Below are positions 16,599 through 56,800 of a stretch of DNA of 64,000 nt, piece by piece. The notes under the pieces are model-generated. The model searched no databases. It worked only from the letters and a program-made list of their open reading frames with translations, and was not told where the DNA came from. This DNA is from the human T2T-CHM13v2.0 reference genome, Homo sapiens, in NCBI RefSeq assembly GCF_009914755.1, contig NC_060929.1. The stretch is one strand, 5' to 3'. The translations under genes were made by a program, and so were the position numbers. The number at the start of each line of letters is the position of its first letter. The stretch's first letter is position 1.

Positions 16599-17332
16599 CT
16601 CAGAATTCCTCAGACTTGCACACATCACCTAACTGGATATGTCATCTTGTCCAAGTCCAGGACAACCAAGGTCCTGGGAGCACCTTAGAACAGGGAGCAC
16701 AGTGGCCTCTTATTCCAGCAGACACCAGGCATGTGGTAGGCACTGCACAATCGCCTCTGGTAACCACCAGAAGTCAATAGCCCTGCAAGGCCTTAAGACT
16801 TGAGTATCAGGACCTGGCAGTGATGAGGGTGGGGAGTCAGGGGGAGATGATAGGGAAAGGATTACAAAACAAAAGTGAAAGGCAAAATGAAATGCAAAAA
16901 TCCAAGTGACGTCACCTGTGTCTTCCTTAATTTGCTCATTTGCTGGATGGGAATAATCCCTACCTCCTAAGGCTGGGTGAGGATTTCCTAAGGTCAAGCA
17001 TGTAAAATGCGTAGCATGGCTCCTGTAACTACGAGAGCTCCACAAATGCAAACTATATGACAAGTGAGGAACATTAGATGACAGTCATGCTTCGATTTAA
17101 GTAAAGTTAATTGTAAAAATATAAACTTCCTAGAGGAAGTTGTTCTTCGTTCCTGCGGCTGTTGTTCTAACAAGTTAATTCCTTTGGTGGATTTCCAGTA
17201 AGATCCAATTTGCAAAAAAATGCATTTGGCACCAAATATTTCATAACCCATCTAAATACATACCCTGGGCCAATTTGTGTTGCTGTAGAACCACCCGTCC
17301 TTACTTCATGCTATTCGTTGGAGTATAACAGC

Positions 17333-20895: not shown

Positions 20896-23036
20896 TGAGT
20901 GAAGGAATGAATGATTGGGAGGCAACTCAGCTCCAGCCCCATTTAAAACTGTATTTCATCCATGATTTGTGGAGCTCATATTGACACCAGAGTGTGCCAA
21001 GTTTCCCAAGTTTCCATCAGTCTTCATGATATCAGCCTGAGAATTTTTCTTCACTGAAAGAACTTCTCCAACTCCACTAGTGAAAATCCTGTCTGGCCAA
21101 TGGCCACCGACTCTGAGAGTCTTTGTGGGAACCCAGCAGCTGAATGTAGAGACCTGCCTGACACTCTCATTGCAGAACGTTCCACGTCCTAGCTAGGTGT
21201 ACCCGTTCTTTAGCTCCTCTAAAAGCACTGCCTATTGCTGGAGGCAAAAGACCAAGCCCCCAGAATAACAGGAGCCCTGAAAATAGCTTCCATTCAGTGT
21301 GCCCCCTGAGGACAGACACCACCTTGCCTCACCACTGTGTCTTCAGGTTGCTGTGGGGTGCCTCGCACCCGAGAGATGCTCAATAACTGTTTGTGGAGTG
21401 AATAGAATCCAAAAAGAGTTGAACATAAATGTGCAGGACTTGCTAATTCTTCTGTGTGCAGGCAACACTGGGGCTTCAGGGGGATGCTGGTGCCCAGCAA
21501 CAACTTGTGTGTGGCCCTGGGGTCTGTTTCCAGGACGGCGGGATCCCCTGGTCTGTATTTTGTGAAAAGATGAGTTCCCTGGATCCATTTGACTGGGTTT
21601 CATTGAAGGACATTTGAAAAAGGAAACTGGGGAAGGCAAATTAGCCTCCCTGGCTTCCTGCAGAGAGCACCTTTTATGAGACTGTCATTTCGAGTTTCCT
21701 CTTCCTCTTGTTTGGTTCACACATTCCCACAACCTCCCTCAGAGAACAGATTGAACCCCTATTTTCCTCATTAAAGATCACATCAGTGCAAGGACATCCT
21801 GTCTGGATGGGTAGGAAGTGCCCCAGGAGATGTCTATCGTGCGTCTGGGCCCCACAGGAGCAAGCTTCTGGCTGCCATCTCTTAGGATCTCACAGCCTTT
21901 GGACCTTGCAACAGCACCTCTCCCCAGTGTTAAGCAGACCCAGGGCTGATTGCCAGTCACTTCCAGAAGGATGGAGTTCAAAGGGACATCTGGAGCAAAC
22001 AGACTTCGGGTGGCAGGTGAGCCGCTGGGTGCAGCATGAGCAGGGTCTCCCAGCAGAACAGGACAGGCATCCATTGGAGGGGTTAAGACTTTGAACACTG
22101 GGGTATAAAAGTTCAGGGGCCCAAACTTGGCTCCACCACAAACCAGTTGTAAGACTTTGGGCAAGTTATTTAATCTTTTACAACCTCAGTTCCCAAACTA
22201 CAAAATGAGCCTAGCAATAATGTCTCATCATGATACATTTTTAGATTAAATGAGCCAAAGCCTGTAAGTATCTGGTGCTTGGGAAATGCAAAGTCACACA
22301 GCTGCTGGTGGGCACGCATCGCTTGGGCATCATATAATCTGTCTTGCCCACTAGACTGTGAACTACTCGAGGGCAGGAACTCGGGTGACCAAGACAGGGC
22401 CTGGCCCGTAGTAGATGCTCATCAGTTATTTGTTGAAGACATGTCAGACAAGGCTGAGTGGAAATGACACTCACTGTTGTAATGTTAATAGTAGTGGTTT
22501 ATTTTCCTGTCTCCTTAACTAGACTGAGGTCCTAGAGAACACAGATGAGCCTTATTCTTCCACGTATTCCCAGTGCCTAGGACACTCTCAACCTCTCTGA
22601 GTCCCTGTTTCCCCCATTTATTCCCCCTGTTTAGAAATAGAAGCCCTACTTGGCAGGGTTTCTGAAGGTAACATGAGTCAACATATGTGAAACACTTTGC
22701 ATGGTGCCTTGCCTTCGTAAGAGCCCCATTATGACAACTGTGATCATAACTACTTTACATAAAGGCTTCTGACCCAGTGTCCAGGGCTTGCAGGTAAGCT
22801 TCCACATACTCCCAGGGTGTGGCCATCTGAGCTGATTCATGGATGAGCTTGGAGACTCCCTACCGTTTACTAAGTGCCAACCTCTTATACACCAAGACCT
22901 GCCTGGGCTCCTCTAAGTGGCAAGTAACTTGCCCGTGATCAGACACCTACTAATCAGTAGAGCTGAGATTTGAATGCAAGCATCTGGCTCCACAGCTGCC
23001 ACGACTGATCTTCACTGTTCAGCTTCCCTAAGGCCT

Positions 23037-23235
23037 GTTAGTTTCTCAGCCTGAGCACAACTGACCTTGTGGGCCAGATGGTTCTTGGCTGTGGGAGGCT
23101 GTCTCATGCACTGTAGGGTGTGTAGCTGCATCCATGCCTCTGCCACTAGATGCCATGACCTCCCCATGCCCCCAGAGTCACAATGACCAAAAATGACTCC
23201 AGACACTGACAAACATCCCCTGGGTTGAAAACCAC
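23037..23235 (-). mobile_element. MER20 (complete donor copy)
   Basis: Reverse complement of the MER20 consensus from gtttctcagcctgagcac to tgggttgaaaaccac, with both ends present. Confidence 0.8.
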
Positions 23236-23315
23236 CTTTCCCCTCTCCCTCTCCCAAACCCACAGGAGCCCTCTCCCATGGGCATACCAAGGCCATCGTC
23301 TCCTGAGACAGGAGT
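23086..23315 (+). repeat. Inverted duplication arm A (230 bp)
   Basis: Exact reverse complement of 24368-24597 by manual comparison; identical peptide in ORFs 23012..23413(-) and 24330..24755(+). Confidence 0.97.
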
Positions 23316-23419
23316 ACCTTGGGAAGAAGCCTGAGCTCTGTCCCAGTTCCACTGATTTGAGAATGACCTGGTGAGTCAACCTCCTCTGTCAGGATCCCTT
23401 TTCTCATCAGCAAAGGGCA

Positions 23420-23985
23420 CTAATGTCCACCAAACTGCCCAACTCAGAAATGTGGGCATCACCCTTGACCCTCTCTCTTCCTCACCACCCTCACCTTATT
23501 ATCTCTCACTCAGTCCTATTGGCACTATCTCCTAATTATTGTTCAAATCCATCCCCTCCATTCTCCCTCCCTCTCCTCTCCTACCTCGGTTCAGGCCGCC
23601 GTGTCTCACCTCTGGATCAGCTTCTCAGACAATGTCTGCCTCCAACCCCGCCTCTCAAGTCCAGGGTGGTTTTCCCAAAACACAAATCTGATCACTCCCT
23701 ACCTTGGGTGTTTTCTGAGAGCATCCTCCACTCCTGAAAGCGTTGAAATGTTGCAAAGCCCAGTTAAACTCTAAGCCCAGACAGAGCTGGGGATAAGCCT
23801 CACTCCAGGCTCTTAGCTCCCTGATCATGAGTTGCCCTGTCTGTCTCTTCTACTGCATGGCACACCCTGTGCAGGCAGGGATGTCTTGGTCCCTGGACCC
23901 TCAGTGTGCAGCATGGGATGCACACAGCCAGCACTCAGCAAGCACTCACTGGGTGGACAGATGAATAAATGGATAGATGGATGGA
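23420..23985 (+). mobile_element. L2 fragment(s) in the spacer of the inverted duplication
   Basis: aaacacaaatctgatcactcc, gcaggcagggatgtc, gcactcagcaagc...gatgaataaatggatagatgga. Confidence 0.65.
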
Positions 23986-24367
23986 GAGTGGTGCAGGCCT
24001 GTGCAGTGCTCTAAGCTAGGGAGGACATCCTGAGCCCCCTGCAAGGGCTCCGGAAATATTTGTGGGGAGACAGATTCCTATCCTCAACTTCAAGGGGTTC
24101 TCCACTGTAAGAGGAAGATCAATGCCCTTCCTATATGGGCATTTCACATCCTGAGGCAGGGATGTGCACAGTGAGATGGACAGGATACAGTAGATTATTT
24201 GCTATGTGCCTGACAGCTCTCCTCTGAGCCAGACTTTTCTTACAGGAACTAGTTAGAGGAGGGGATCACTTCCCAAAGAACAAGACCCTAGAGACTGGGA
24301 GCATCTGACGGACTTTATTTAAAGGAACAGTGACAAGACGTTTCACTGTGTTTACTTGGCAGGTGCA

Positions 24368-24597
24368 ACTCCTGTCTCAGGAGACGATGGCCTTGGTATG
24401 CCCATGGGAGAGGGCTCCTGTGGGTTTGGGAGAGGGAGAGGGGAAAGGTGGTTTTCAACCCAGGGGATGTTTGTCAGTGTCTGGAGTCATTTTTGGTCAT
24501 TGTGACTCTGGGGGCATGGGGAGGTCATGGCATCTAGTGGCAGAGGCATGGATGCAGCTACACACCCTACAGTGCATGAGACAGCCTCCCACAGCCA
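24368..24597 (-). repeat. Inverted duplication arm B (230 bp; truncated MER20 plus unique flank)
   Basis: Exact reverse complement of 23086-23315; the MER20 stops abruptly at acagcca. Confidence 0.97.
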
Positions 24598-25249
24598 CAG
24601 AGCTCTGTTCAGTGGGTTTTCCCTCTAGGGTGGGGGACAGGTTCATTCCAGCAGAGGGGCTGCTGGGGCTGGCATGGCGATGGCCATTAAGGGCACACAG
24701 CACCCTGTTTCCTCATCCTCCCGCAGCACCCTTGCCCTCCCCTGCCTGTCCCTGAGCCTGAGGGAGGGGACCAGCCAGCCAGAACCTGGGGCTGGGGACG
24801 GTGACAGCTGCACCTGCCCAGAGTCAACAGGATTTGTTCCCCTGGATTTTCCACACTGGTGGTTCCAAGATCGGGTCTGATTGCCTGCATACCTTTTAAG
24901 GCCTGCCTGGGAGCAGAGCAGGGCCTTGGGGAGGCTGTGGGCCAGAGGTGTCTGGAGAGAGCTCTCCTGAAGTTGGCAGGTGGATGTGACTCCCATTTAG
25001 CCCCCCTCCCCACCACAGACAGACACATACAAAGACATAATTGGTAGGAGCAAAGGAGCCAGGCCAGCAACAGAGCCTAGACTAGGGACCAGCTGAGGCC
25101 AGTCCAGGTGGGGAAAGAAGGGGCACTGCCAGCTTGGTCTTGAGCCAAGGAGATGCTGGCAGAATGAAAATTAGGGCTCCAGCTCATTGGTTCTAGAATT
25201 GGAGCCTGGAGCCTTTAAGTGAGGGTGATTCAATAATAACTTCTAAGAG

Positions 25250-25425
25250 GGCAGGCTCTGGAGTCAACAACTGAGTCCCAACCCCAGTTTCTTCCCTTAC
25301 TCTGTGTGACCTTGAGCCAGTCCCTTCACTTCTCCAAGCCTCAGCTTCCTCATCTGTAAAATGGGAATTGTTGTGAAGATGAATGAGACAACAGATTAGA
25401 TGTTCAGCCCAGGACCTGGCATGTT
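25250..25425 (+). mobile_element. MIR SINE
   Basis: ggctctggagtca...tgtgtgaccttgagc...gcctcagcttcctcatctgtaaaatggg. Confidence 0.8.
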
Positions 25426-25671
25426 ATGGATTGTTTTGTCTTTGCAGTAAGAGATCATCCCTGCGCGCACTCCCCATCTTCACACAGAGTAGGGACAAGG
25501 GAGAAGTGGGCAGCCTGGAATGAGCGGCAAGTGGGGAGAACAGAGAACAAGCCACTGCTGGGGCATGTGACCCCAGGAGGAGCTTCGCTTGCCTCCATCA
25601 TTCCTTGTCCCATGTGAGAGGCGGCTGCAGAGCTATACTGGAGGAGTGGGTAATAGACTCCTCTTTGTCAG

Positions 25672-26105
25672 TTGTGGTGGGTACAACCGATTACCCAACC
25701 AACAGCCACCCTCCCGCAACTCAAAGCACTTCTTCCTTGCAGACAGAGCTCGCTTTCCATCTTAGAAGCTGAAAATGGTAGACGCTGTCTTGCCCAGGCT
25801 TCCTTACACATGGGCATGTAATTTATTCATGGAAACAAACAACCTCTTTGTTTCTTTCCCAACAACCTTCCCATGCCAGACACTGACATGGGAATGTGAT
25901 GCTGGAAGCTGCAGCTGCCACGTTGCAACCATGAGGGGATGAGCCAAGACCACACCAATGTGCAAAGGACCAGAAAGATGGAAGGGATATTCTGGAACTT
26001 TCGTAGCTCAGAGTTCTTGTAACGTGGGAGGATAAATGAACTCACTGCTTAAACCACTTCTAGGCAGGCCTTCTGTTATTTGAAGCAAAAAGCATTCCAG
26101 CATTT
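25672..26105 (+). mobile_element. Old MaLR LTR (MLT1J/K-like)
   Basis: gtgatgctggaagctgcagctgccacgttgcaaccatgagg; ttctgttatttgaagcaaaaagcattcc. Confidence 0.65.
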
Positions 26106-54919: not shown

Positions 54920-55812
<893 letters not shown>

Positions 55813-56512
55813 ACCTGTCCAGTTTTTAAATGCATGTGCCATTAGAGTTATTTGTCACGCAGATCTTAAGGAGACGGAGCTTGAAGTGTTTTTATTAATT
55901 GCTAACTGAGACCCTATTGCCCAGCAAATCTGCTTAATGAAGAGAGAAGAGTATTTGTGGTATGAAGTGATGCCAAGTGCAAGGTATCCCTAAGAAAGTT
56001 GCTTAATGGCCATGGCACAACATGGAAAGCCACTAGGTACTAAAATGTGTCAATAATAGAGCTGTGGAGAGGAGGAAGGGGAAACAGAAAAAACGAGATA
56101 GCAGATTATTATGAACAACCTTCACCTGTCAAGTCACAAAGGGCTGGTCCAAACATCTCCGTAATGGGCAGAAGTTTCACATCTTTGATATCTTCTTTTT
56201 TTTGGTCTCCTCTGACAAGGTATCATGTCTCTGAAATATGAACACATAGCCTTAAAAATGAATAACAAATGAATAGCAAATGTTGCTCCAATGGTTACTA
56301 AACCCATTATCACCCTGTATTTGTCTTTTGGGTTAATCTTGGCAGTTATGGAAAAAGAAATAAGCATAGATGAGAAATAAATGTATACCTCTATAGTAGC
56401 AAAAATTATAAATAAGGATATCTAATATTGATAAAGATGATTTTACGTTAAGAATCAGACCGAAAATTTTCTATCGTACTCATTATGGAGGAAATGGAAT
56501 AAAATGAGTAAT

Positions 56513-56800
56513 GGCTGGGTGTGGTGGCTCACACCTGTAATTTCAGCACTTTGGGAGGCCGAGGTGGGCAGATCACCTGAGGTCAGGAGTTCGAGACCAG
56601 CCTGGCCAACATGGTGAAACTCCATCTGTACTAAAAATACAAAAGTTAGCCAGCCGTGATGGCAGGCGCCTGTAATCCCAGCTACTCGGAAGTCTGAGGC
56701 AGGAGAATCACTTAAACCTGGGAGGCGGAGGTTGCGTGCCACCACACTCCAGCGTGGGTGACAGAGAGTGACTCCGTCTCAATAAATAAATAAATAAAGT
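56513..56800 (+). mobile_element. AluSx with small right-arm deletion
   Basis: Sense Alu; gaggttgc joined to gtgccacc (agtgagccgagatc missing); (AATA)n tail. Confidence 0.93.

What the first reader, a model, noticed from the sequence alone, without database searches (positions are those of the whole stretch)
23086..24597. Perfect 230-bp inverted duplication flanking a 1052-bp spacer: recent template-switch product and potential flip-flop inversion
Seen: 23086-23315 and 24368-24597 are exact reverse complements with no mismatch found by eye, although most of the unit is an ancient, heavily diverged MER20. Arm A lies inside a complete MER20. Arm B carries a truncated MER20 plus ~80 bp of unique flank, with no TSD, TIR or poly(A). 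Inference: B was copied from A very recently by replication template switching (FoSTeS/MMBIR) rather than by transposition, or the arms are kept identical by gene conversion. Established: close, identical inverted repeats allow recurrent inversion of the spacer, so this could be a polymorphic inversion or inverted-duplication locus.
Basis: partly seen in the sequence, partly recalled or inferred. Interest (0 to 1): 0.8.

Follow-up and report, generated by a model that had tools for sequence, protein, structure and literature searches.

The report
Recent local inverted duplication, 230 bp
A 230-base stretch of old, decayed repeats was copied backwards and inserted about 1 kb away in an intergenic part of human chromosome 5, most likely by a DNA polymerase that briefly switched templates; it is real but is an ordinary kind of small structural change.

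Summary
23086-23315 and 24368-24597 are exact reverse complements (230/230) with a 1052-bp spacer, and they are the only two copies in the assembly.

Arm A is the source:
- Its outer 151 nt lie in an old dispersed repeat that continues about 47 nt beyond the arm. At arm B the same homology stops at the arm end.
- Its inner 79 nt are the tail of a second old (MIR-like) repeat that runs unbroken across 23315|23316 into the spacer. Nothing comparable adjoins arm B.

So B is a reverse-complement insertion at 24367|24598. The spacer still has its ancestral orientation in this haplotype, which rejects an inversion-with-duplication origin.

The junctions show 0 and 2 nt of microhomology, with no TSD or poly(A). 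Two of three independent breakpoints lie within 2 nt of rare short perfect palindromes (a post hoc test). This fits palindrome-associated template switching.

Perfect identity bounds the age only loosely, at 6.5-13 My or less at 95%.

No other human or primate sequence was available, so presence/absence polymorphism and flip-flop inversion are untested. The locus is absent from one catalogue of 612 candidate inversions. Verdict: new member of a known kind, modest interest.

The parts
23086..23315 (+). Arm A, the source copy, in its ancestral context on both sides
   Evidence: 230/230 match. (dispersed repeat continues beyond its outer end). (second repeat continues beyond its inner end).
24368..24597 (-). 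Arm B, the inserted reverse-complement copy of arm A
   Evidence: Repeat homology stops at the arm end. Flanks are single-copy. No repeat continuity into the adjoining spacer (control, 210/1000).
23316..24367 (.). 1052-bp spacer; its orientation is continuous with the source arm, so it is ancestral in this haplotype
   Evidence: Only self hits in the window.
23039..23236 (.). Its part 23086-23236 was copied into arm B.
   Evidence: 38 genomic copies at 71-86%, arm positions 1-152. (extent 23039/23042 to 23213/23236).
23262..23436 (-). Second old dispersed repeat (MIR-like SINE; name recalled) spanning the junction 23315|23316. Its tail is the '79-bp unique flank' of the arms.
   Evidence: score 74 against shuffles of 27.6 +/- 4.6, 0/1000; anchored extension into arm A reached by 3/2000 shuffles.
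23300..23314 (.). Hairpin-capable palindrome (6-bp stem, 3-nt loop) ending 1 nt before the inner end of the copied segment
24597..24608 (.). 12-nt perfect palindrome at the insertion point. It would also exist before insertion, because 24367 and 24597 are the same base.
24366..24367 (+). 2-nt 'CA' shared by the left target flank and the last two bases of the insert. This is the only junction microhomology, or a 2-nt pseudo-TSD.
   Evidence: Read.

Best explanation
Arm B (24368-24597) is a secondary, reverse-complement copy of 23086-23315, inserted between what are now 24367 and 24598, 1052 bp downstream of its source. I think a single switch-and-return of a DNA polymerase made it. A nascent strand left its template at the target site, copied 230 nt from the opposite-sense strand about 1-1.5 kb away, and returned. 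This could have happened at a stalled fork (FoSTeS/MMBIR-type, a long-range version of the 'four-point' template-switch mutation) or during repair synthesis at a break. The target site and the inner end of the donor segment each abut a short perfect palindrome, so hairpin formation in the template or nascent strand probably triggered the switches. The event is young on an evolutionary scale (no older than about 6.5-13 My at 95%, most likely within the human or hominine lineage), but it is not necessarily very recent. Shown: the structure, the direction of copying, the intact ancestral context of arm A, and the ancestral orientation of the spacer. Inferred: the polymerase mechanism, the role of the palindromes, and the age. 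One consequence is a perfect 230-bp inverted repeat that could in principle mediate inversion of the spacer, or form a 230-bp hairpin if single-stranded or transcribed. Neither was observed.
For: The arms are 230/230 complementary and have only two copies in the assembly. In arm A's region the dispersed-repeat homology starts at 23039-23042 in 4 of 6 comparison copies and at 23082-23083 in 2 of 6. In arm B's region it starts within 24592-24602 in 6 of 6, so it never runs more than 5 nt past the arm. A consensus of 29 independent genomic copies of a second repeat was chosen through a motif from a different copy at 22957-22974. It aligns to rc(23262-23436) with score 74 against shuffles of 27.6 +/- 4.6 (0/1000) and passes through 23315|23316. 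The equivalent stretch next to arm B scores 32.5 (210/1000). Anchored continuation of that consensus past the junction fits arm A (3/2000 shuffles) but not the sequence right of arm B (797/2000). B's flanks are single-copy, and no further templated piece is adjacent. Hairpin-capable motifs (stem of 6 or more, loop 0-4) number 164 in 64 kb, and 3.5% of positions lie within 2 nt of one. Two of the three independent breakpoints do (23300-23314 and 24597-24608), a nominal probability of about 0.004. Passages of PMC5120786 report templated insertions of 7 bp to 13 kb with blunt or 1-3-bp-microhomology junctions in human replication-based rearrangements. PMC5453318 describes the reverse-complement copy model.
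Against: No ancestral (empty-site) sequence was seen, so insertion is inferred from repeat continuity alone and a deletion at the target cannot be excluded. Junction microhomology is 0 and 2 nt, which does not separate replicative switching from end joining (PMC5120786 passages). The palindrome association was noticed first and tested afterwards, with parameters of my own choice, so its nominal p overstates the case. The third breakpoint (23085|23086) has no such motif. The second-repeat evidence needed a consensus. A single-copy comparison was not significant (36/500). BLAST against three copies gave nothing (best E 1.3). The nhmmer profile of the same 29 copies did not report the 23262-23436 copy at all. 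The published short-range template-switch models deliberately cover only tens to hundreds of nt, so this event lies outside what they tested.
Confidence: 0.68

Rival explanations
1. Non-replicative capture. A double-strand break at 24367|24598 was sealed by end joining that trapped a 230-bp DNA fragment. The fragment was a copy or excised piece of 23086-23315 from the sister chromatid or homologue.
For: One junction is blunt and the other has 2 nt of microhomology, which is typical of NHEJ. The 12-nt palindrome at the target could equally be a breakage site.
Against: It needs a free 230-bp fragment from a source only 1 kb away while the source stays intact on this chromosome. The donor's inner end also abuts a palindrome, and that is more naturally a polymerase dissociation or entry point than a second and third break.
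Confidence: 0.12
2. The inverted duplication is old (tens of My), and recurrent gene conversion between the arms keeps them identical.
For: Perfect identity alone cannot exclude it. Arm-to-arm conversion is established for large palindromes (recalled knowledge, no call).
Against: Identity is perfect up to the last base at both ends, with no decayed homology beyond. Conversion tracts need homology on both sides and should leave frayed edges. The arms are only 230 bp, far shorter than palindromes known to be homogenised. Without conversion, P(0 differences) is 0.003 or less at 25 My.
Confidence: 0.1
3. Inversion with duplication. Staggered breaks around arm A plus a break at the far end inverted A with the spacer and filled in a second copy of A, so the spacer was inverted at birth.
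For: This mechanism yields exactly an inverted duplication flanking an inverted segment (recalled from the Drosophila inversion literature, no call).
Against: It predicts that 23315|23316 is a novel junction and that rc(23316...) once adjoined 24598. Instead an old repeat runs unbroken through 23315|23316 (0/1000; 3/2000) and does not continue into 24598 onward (797/2000).
Confidence: 0.03
4. Assembly artefact. Arm B is not present in the CHM13 genome.
For: None was found. Reads could not be inspected.
Against: The structure is not a fold-back chimera. It has two distinct junctions in single-copy sequence and spans only 1.5 kb, well inside single long reads (inference).
Confidence: 0.03
5. Arm B is an independent transposon insertion, or a transposition or retroposition of the repeat.
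For: Two thirds of the arm is a dispersed repeat.
Against: Other copies of that repeat are only 71-86% identical, while the arms are 100% identical. The copy includes 79 nt found nowhere else in the genome. The repeat is truncated in B. There is no poly(A) and no duplication longer than 2 nt.
Confidence: 0.01

Closest known systems
Template-switch mutations under the four-point model (Loytynoja & Goldman 2017, PMC5453318; Walker et al. 2021, PMC7954356; passages read)
   Same: A fragment (2->3) of nearby sequence is copied in reverse complement and placed between points 1 and 4. This creates a perfect inverted repeat from sequence that had none. Here points 1 and 4 are adjacent.
   Different: Those studies restrict themselves to short-range events, with the template sought within tens to hundreds of nt (+/-100 nt in PMC7954356). 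Here 230 nt were copied from 1.05-1.5 kb away. No ancestral sequence was available here to run their test.
FoSTeS/MMBIR templated insertions in human rearrangements (Gu et al. 2016, PMC5120786; passages read)
   Same: Templated insertions of 7 bp to 13 kb, some inverted, with blunt junctions or 1-3 bp microhomology.
   Different: Those accompany large pathogenic copy-number changes with several switches. This is a single, isolated 230-bp insertion in an intergenic reference haplotype.
Small polymorphic human inversions flanked by short inverted repeats (Moreira-Pinhal et al. 2026, PMC13629690, Table S1 part 1): HsInv0031 (644 bp; 285/249-bp blocks), HsInv0045 (940; 256/257), HsInv0098 (1077; 297/297), HsInv0147 (1550; 140/140)
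   Same: Nearly the same geometry: about 1 kb between inverted blocks of about 140-300 bp, and these are listed as polymorphic.
   Different: Their blocks are typed 'SINE', so they are independent insertions rather than a duplicate of one locus. Giner-Delgado et al. 2019 (PMC6748972) count as NAHR only IRs of 654 bp to 24.2 kb. Other rows with the same geometry (HsInv0021, HsInv0049) are listed as not polymorphic. No second orientation is known here, and the locus is not in that table.
Intergenic inverted duplicates as possible hairpin-RNA sources (Chen et al. 2017, PMC5398296; abstract and sections 6 and 12 read)
   Same: Two reverse-complement copies separated by a spacer in intergenic DNA. 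The stretch folds into a full 230-bp stem in silico.
   Different: That survey capped spacers at 1000 nt, so this 1052-nt case would not be in it. No evidence of transcription was available here.

Membership tests
Local inverted (dispersed) duplication made by template switching | The new segment is an exact reverse complement of nearby sequence | tested here: met
   230/230 match, source 1052 bp away.
Local inverted (dispersed) duplication made by template switching | The source copy stays in its ancestral context while the new copy has novel junctions | tested here: met
   Two old repeats continue beyond arm A on both sides and beyond arm B on neither.
Local inverted (dispersed) duplication made by template switching | Microhomology at the switch points | tested here: inconclusive
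   0 nt at 24367|24368. 2 nt (CA) at 24597|24598, assuming no target deletion.
Local inverted (dispersed) duplication made by template switching | An empty site exists in an outgroup or another haplotype | not testable with these tools
   Only this one human assembly is held (header: no relatives).
Inverted-repeat (NAHR) mediated polymorphic inversion | Highly identical inverted repeats flank the segment | tested here: met
   100% over 230 bp. This is inside the 140 bp-190 kb range of catalogued candidates. It is below the 654-bp minimum of the NAHR class in PMC6748972.
Inverted-repeat (NAHR) mediated polymorphic inversion | Both orientations are observed among chromosomes | not testable with these tools
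   No other haplotypes are available. This haplotype has the ancestral orientation. There is no entry near the estimated hg38 position in PMC13629690 Table S1 or in the supplements of PMC13721702.
MER20 (hAT-type DNA transposon) for the repeat inside the arms | Match to the family consensus | not testable with these tools
No transposon library is held. What was shown is many dispersed copies at 71-86% identity over about 150-200 nt.
Transposition or retroposition origin of arm B | Target-site duplication, terminal inverted repeats or a poly(A) tail at the ends of the new copy | tested here: not met
   The ends lie inside one repeat and inside another. There is no poly(A), and only 2 nt are shared at the flanks.
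Palindrome arms homogenised by gene conversion | Arms are identical within a species but the structure is shared and divergent between species | not testable with these tools
   No primate sequence is available. The sharp arm ends argue against it indirectly.

The most novel reading that the evidence does not exclude
The insertion is specific to humans, or still polymorphic among them, and is a rare kilobase-range, palindrome-triggered template switch caught with both switch points legible. Its perfect 230-bp arms now make the 1-kb spacer an active flip-flop inversion and/or, if transcribed, a 230-bp perfect double-stranded RNA hairpin (in-silico stem 230/230).
Probability: 0.1. Interest if true: 0.5.

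Novelty: new member of a known kind. Interest (0 to 1): 0.3.

Why it matters
The locus lies in intergenic DNA with no annotated gene or element on it, so the direct biological consequence is probably nil. Its value is as a clean specimen. It is a single, isolated, perfectly preserved reverse-complement insertion whose source, target and switch points can all be read, at a size (230 nt) and distance (about 1 kb) between two studied classes. One class is the short-range template-switch mutations studied genome-wide; the other is the large clinical FoSTeS/MMBIR rearrangements. If population data showed it to be polymorphic or invertible, it would be one of the smallest perfect-repeat inversion substrates known. 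It would also be a convenient assay locus for NAHR at the lower length limit.

Tried and rejected
- **Pairwise test of the second repeat.** I compared the putative repeat at 23240-23460 with the copy at 22880-23040. It was not significant (36/500 shuffles).
- **BLAST against three genomic copies.** Nothing was found (best E 1.3).
- **nhmmer profile of 29 copies.** It found the copies at 22921-23012 and 22588-22714 but did not report the one at 23262-23436. Only the consensus alignment with shuffles was significant.
- **Single-sequence nhmmer of the flanks and spacer against the window.** This gave only self hits. It also gave an over-extended arm hit reaching 23358/24316, which one search shows is not real homology.
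- **Rfam.** No match was near any gathering score (6 matches, E 0.67-9.5).
- **Further templated pieces at the junctions.** Four isolated 11-mers turned up within +/-6 kb (about 0.9 expected). The one nearest a junction does not extend.
- **The 9-mer shared by 23333 and 24600.** I could not fit it into any switch model and treat it as chance, or as a by-product of the palindrome.
- **Locus-specific literature.** PMC13629690 Table S1 has no chr5 entry with a coordinate beginning 17014-17019; the single hit was on chr17. The two supplements of PMC13721702 gave no hit. Porubsky et al. 2022 (PMC9563103) is not held, so its inversion table, which may bear on this locus, was not seen. The hg38 position I searched (about chr5:170.17 Mb) is my own estimate from a recalled hg38 coordinate of FOXI1.

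Full report
**1. The observation**

The repeat finder reports arms 23086-23315 and 24368-24597: 230 nt, 100% complementary, 1052 nt apart. A script confirms exact reverse complementarity.

- The bases just beyond the arms differ, and the next 120 nt on either side are no more similar than shuffled sequence (inner 206/500, outer 353/500 shuffles reach the observed score). The repeat therefore ends sharply.
- In the whole 64-kb window, 19 inverted pairs of 60 nt or more lie within 10 kb of each other. This is the only one at 100%; the other 18 are 78-90% and lie in stretches the hub lists as masked repeats.
- The arm has one CpG and 56% G+C.

**2. What the arms are made of**

A search of the window's own assembly (3.1 Gb, 24 contigs) with arm A scored 40 of 56 candidates.

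- Two hits are the arms themselves, at 100%.
- The other 38 are 71-86% identical and cover only arm positions 1 to 152 at most.
- So the outer two thirds of the arm is an old, much-diverged dispersed repeat.
- The inner 79 nt (23237-23315) occur only twice in the genome, once in each arm (2 matches of 2 candidates).

**3. Which arm is the original**

I compared both regions with six of the dispersed copies (L003-L008).

| Region | Where repeat homology begins | Where it ends |
|---|---|---|
| Around arm A | 23039-23042 in 4 of 6 copies; 23082-23083 in 2 of 6 | 23213-23236 |
| Around arm B | 24592-24602 in 6 of 6 | (not relevant) |

- Around arm A the repeat runs about 47 nt beyond the arm's outer end.
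- Around arm B the homology never extends more than 5 nt beyond the arm end.
- Arm A therefore sits inside a longer element, and arm B holds a truncated piece of it.

**4. The inner end, and whether the spacer has been inverted**

From recollection, the sequence around 23316-23430 looked like a second ancient repeat (MIR-like), in the opposite orientation to a clearer copy at about 22921-23012. Testing this took several attempts, and I report them all.

- A direct comparison of the two copies was not significant (36/500).
- An own-genome search with the left copy found only 3 other copies. BLAST of the junction region against them gave nothing (best E 1.3).
- I then took an 18-nt motif from the left copy (22957-22974). 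With up to 3 mismatches it has 14,608 matches in the genome against 1,541 for the reversed control.
- I aligned the 29 exact-match loci and built a profile. nhmmer with that profile found 22921-23012 (E 1.3e-14) and a further copy at 22588-22714 (E 6.5e-4). It did not report the candidate at 23316 onward.

A local alignment of the profile's consensus was clear, however:

- It aligns to the reverse complement of 23262-23436 with score 74, against 27.6 +/- 4.6 for 1000 shuffles (maximum 48; 0/1000).
- The alignment runs straight through 23315|23316.
- The equivalent stretch beside arm B (24220-24450) scores 32.5 (210/1000), and its best alignment is not adjacent to the arm.

An anchored test then asked what follows 23316 in the repeat's frame:

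- Arm A's inner end fits (score 13 against -3.7 +/- 4.6; 3/2000).
- The sequence to the right of arm B (24598 onward) does not (797/2000).

The consensus came from copies chosen without reference to the tested region, so the test is not circular.

Conclusions from this section:
- The junction arm A|spacer is ancestral.
- The '79-bp unique flank' is the decayed tail of this second repeat.
- Arm B is an insertion.
- The spacer in this haplotype still faces the way it did before the duplication.
- This rejects the model in which an inversion and a flanking inverted duplication arise together. It also means this haplotype has not flipped, or has flipped an even number of times.

**5. The insertion junctions**

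- B's flanks (24100-24367 and 24598-24900) are single-copy in the genome.
- There is no poly(A).
- The left flank and the insert both end in CA. This is 2 nt of possible microhomology at 24597|24598 if nothing was deleted.
- The other junction has none (read).
- No further short templated piece adjoins the junctions. Four isolated 11-mers occur within +/-6 kb (about 0.9 expected), and the one nearest a junction does not extend.

**6. Palindromes at the switch points (noticed, then tested)**

- The insertion point lies at the first base of a 12-nt perfect palindrome (24597-24608). It would have existed before the insertion too, because 24367 and 24597 are the same base.
- The copied segment's inner end (23315) lies 1 nt after a 15-nt hairpin-capable palindrome (23300-23314; 6-bp stem, 3-nt loop).
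- Such motifs (stem of 6 or more, loop 0-4) number 164 in the window, and only 3.5% of positions lie within 2 nt of one.
- Between 23000 and 24700 there are three independent ones, and two are at breakpoints.
- Two of three independent breakpoints being so placed has a nominal probability of about 0.004 (my arithmetic). The definition was chosen after seeing the data, and the third breakpoint (23085|23086) has no motif. I therefore treat this as suggestive only.

The pattern fits either reading of a template switch:
- A polymerase moving rightward stalls at a template hairpin at the target, restarts on the other strand beside the donor palindrome, and returns on 2 nt of homology.
- A polymerase moving leftward dissociates just after synthesising each palindrome.

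**7. Mechanism**

The structure is what the four-point template-switch model describes. [quoted passage not shown]

- This event is at a longer range than the model's authors searched. They state that they do not model long-range switches, and the later pair-HMM study looks within +/-100 nt (PMC7954356, passages).
- In clinical rearrangements ascribed to FoSTeS/MMBIR, templated insertions of 7 bp to 13 kb (including 376 and 815 bp) occur with blunt ends or 1-3 bp of microhomology. The same authors stress that such junctions do not separate NHEJ, MMEJ and MMBIR (PMC5120786, passages).
- I therefore put about two thirds on a polymerase switch-and-return and about one eighth on capture of a fragment by end joining.

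**8. Age**

With no conversion, P(no difference) = exp(-2·mu·t·230).

| Rate per year | P at 1 My | P at 6.5 My | P at 13 My | 95% bound |
|---|---|---|---|---|
| 0.5e-9 | 0.80 | 0.22 | 0.05 | 13 My |
| 1e-9 | 0.63 | 0.05 | 0.003 | 6.5 My |

- Scaling by a recalled 1.2% human-chimpanzee divergence gives P = 0.06.
- So the copy probably postdates the human-chimpanzee split, but 'very recent' is not required.
- Long-term gene conversion is the alternative. The perfectly sharp arm ends and the short arms argue against it but do not exclude it.

**9. Could it flip?**

- The arms pair 230/230 in minimum-free-energy folds of the 1512-nt stretch, with both DNA and RNA parameters.
- Giner-Delgado et al. 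count as NAHR-mediated only IRs of 654 bp to 24.2 kb (PMC6748972, passages).
- A 2026 catalogue of 612 candidate IR inversions spans IRs of 140 bp to 190 kb, and found both orientations in 155 of the 612 (PMC13629690, passages).
- In part 1 of 43 of its Table S1, several rows have nearly this geometry and are marked polymorphic: HsInv0031 (644 bp; 285/249), HsInv0045 (940; 256/257), HsInv0098 (1077; 297/297) and HsInv0147 (1550; 140/140).
- Others with the same geometry are marked not polymorphic: HsInv0021 and HsInv0049.
- Those blocks are typed SINE. I do not know that NAHR made them.
- A search of that file for coordinates beginning 17014-17019 found only a chr17 row. The supplements of an inversion benchmark gave nothing. 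My hg38 position (about chr5:170.17 Mb) rests on a recalled coordinate for FOXI1.
- Porubsky et al. 2022 is not held.
- Flip-flop inversion is therefore possible by precedent, unobserved, and untestable here.

**10. Other context**

- Yeast work shows that widely spaced inverted repeats become unstable mainly in long single-stranded DNA (PMC10164571, abstract only).
- A survey of mammalian inverted duplicates capped spacers at 1000 nt, so it would have missed this case (PMC5398296, sections 6 and 12).
- Rfam has no match near threshold in 22300-25300.
- The hub's gene table shows no gene or element on the locus.

**11. Verdict**

The evidence here adds four things:
- the ancestral state of both arm-A junctions;
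- rejection of the inversion-with-duplication origin;
- a realistic age bound;
- the palindromes at the switch points.

The event belongs to a known kind, a templated reverse-complement insertion (inverted dispersed duplication). It is of modest interest unless population data show it to be polymorphic or invertible.

Noticed in passing
window 22588-22714 (-) and 22921-23012 (+): Two further copies of the MIR-like repeat lie just left of arm A (profile E 6.5e-4 and 1.3e-14). With the copy at 23262-23436 (-), the source arm sits in a cluster of old repeats in mixed orientation.
   Followed up: partly
window 23333-23341 and 24600-24608: The same 9-mer (GAGCTCTGT) occurs 17 nt inside the spacer from arm A and 2 nt outside arm B. 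These are its only two occurrences in 22000-26000. It overlaps the 12-nt palindrome. I could not fit it into a switch model.
   Followed up: partly
window 55590-55813 and 56512-56735: A closely spaced inverted pair of high-copy (Alu-like, masked) repeats, 81-88% complementary, with about 700-940 nt between the matched parts (pairs I7, I13, I16). It has the same geometry as the finding but comes from independent diverged insertions.
   Followed up: no
window 22300-22377 (+): A weak sub-threshold Rfam match to the mir-28 precursor family (18.8 bits against a gathering score of 64, E 4.7, cut off at the search edge). It is probably a fragment of an old repeat rather than a miRNA gene.
   Followed up: no
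window 24353-24363 and 22647-22657: An isolated 11-mer direct match 4 nt from arm B's left junction. Alignment shows no extension, so it is taken as chance.
   Followed up: yes
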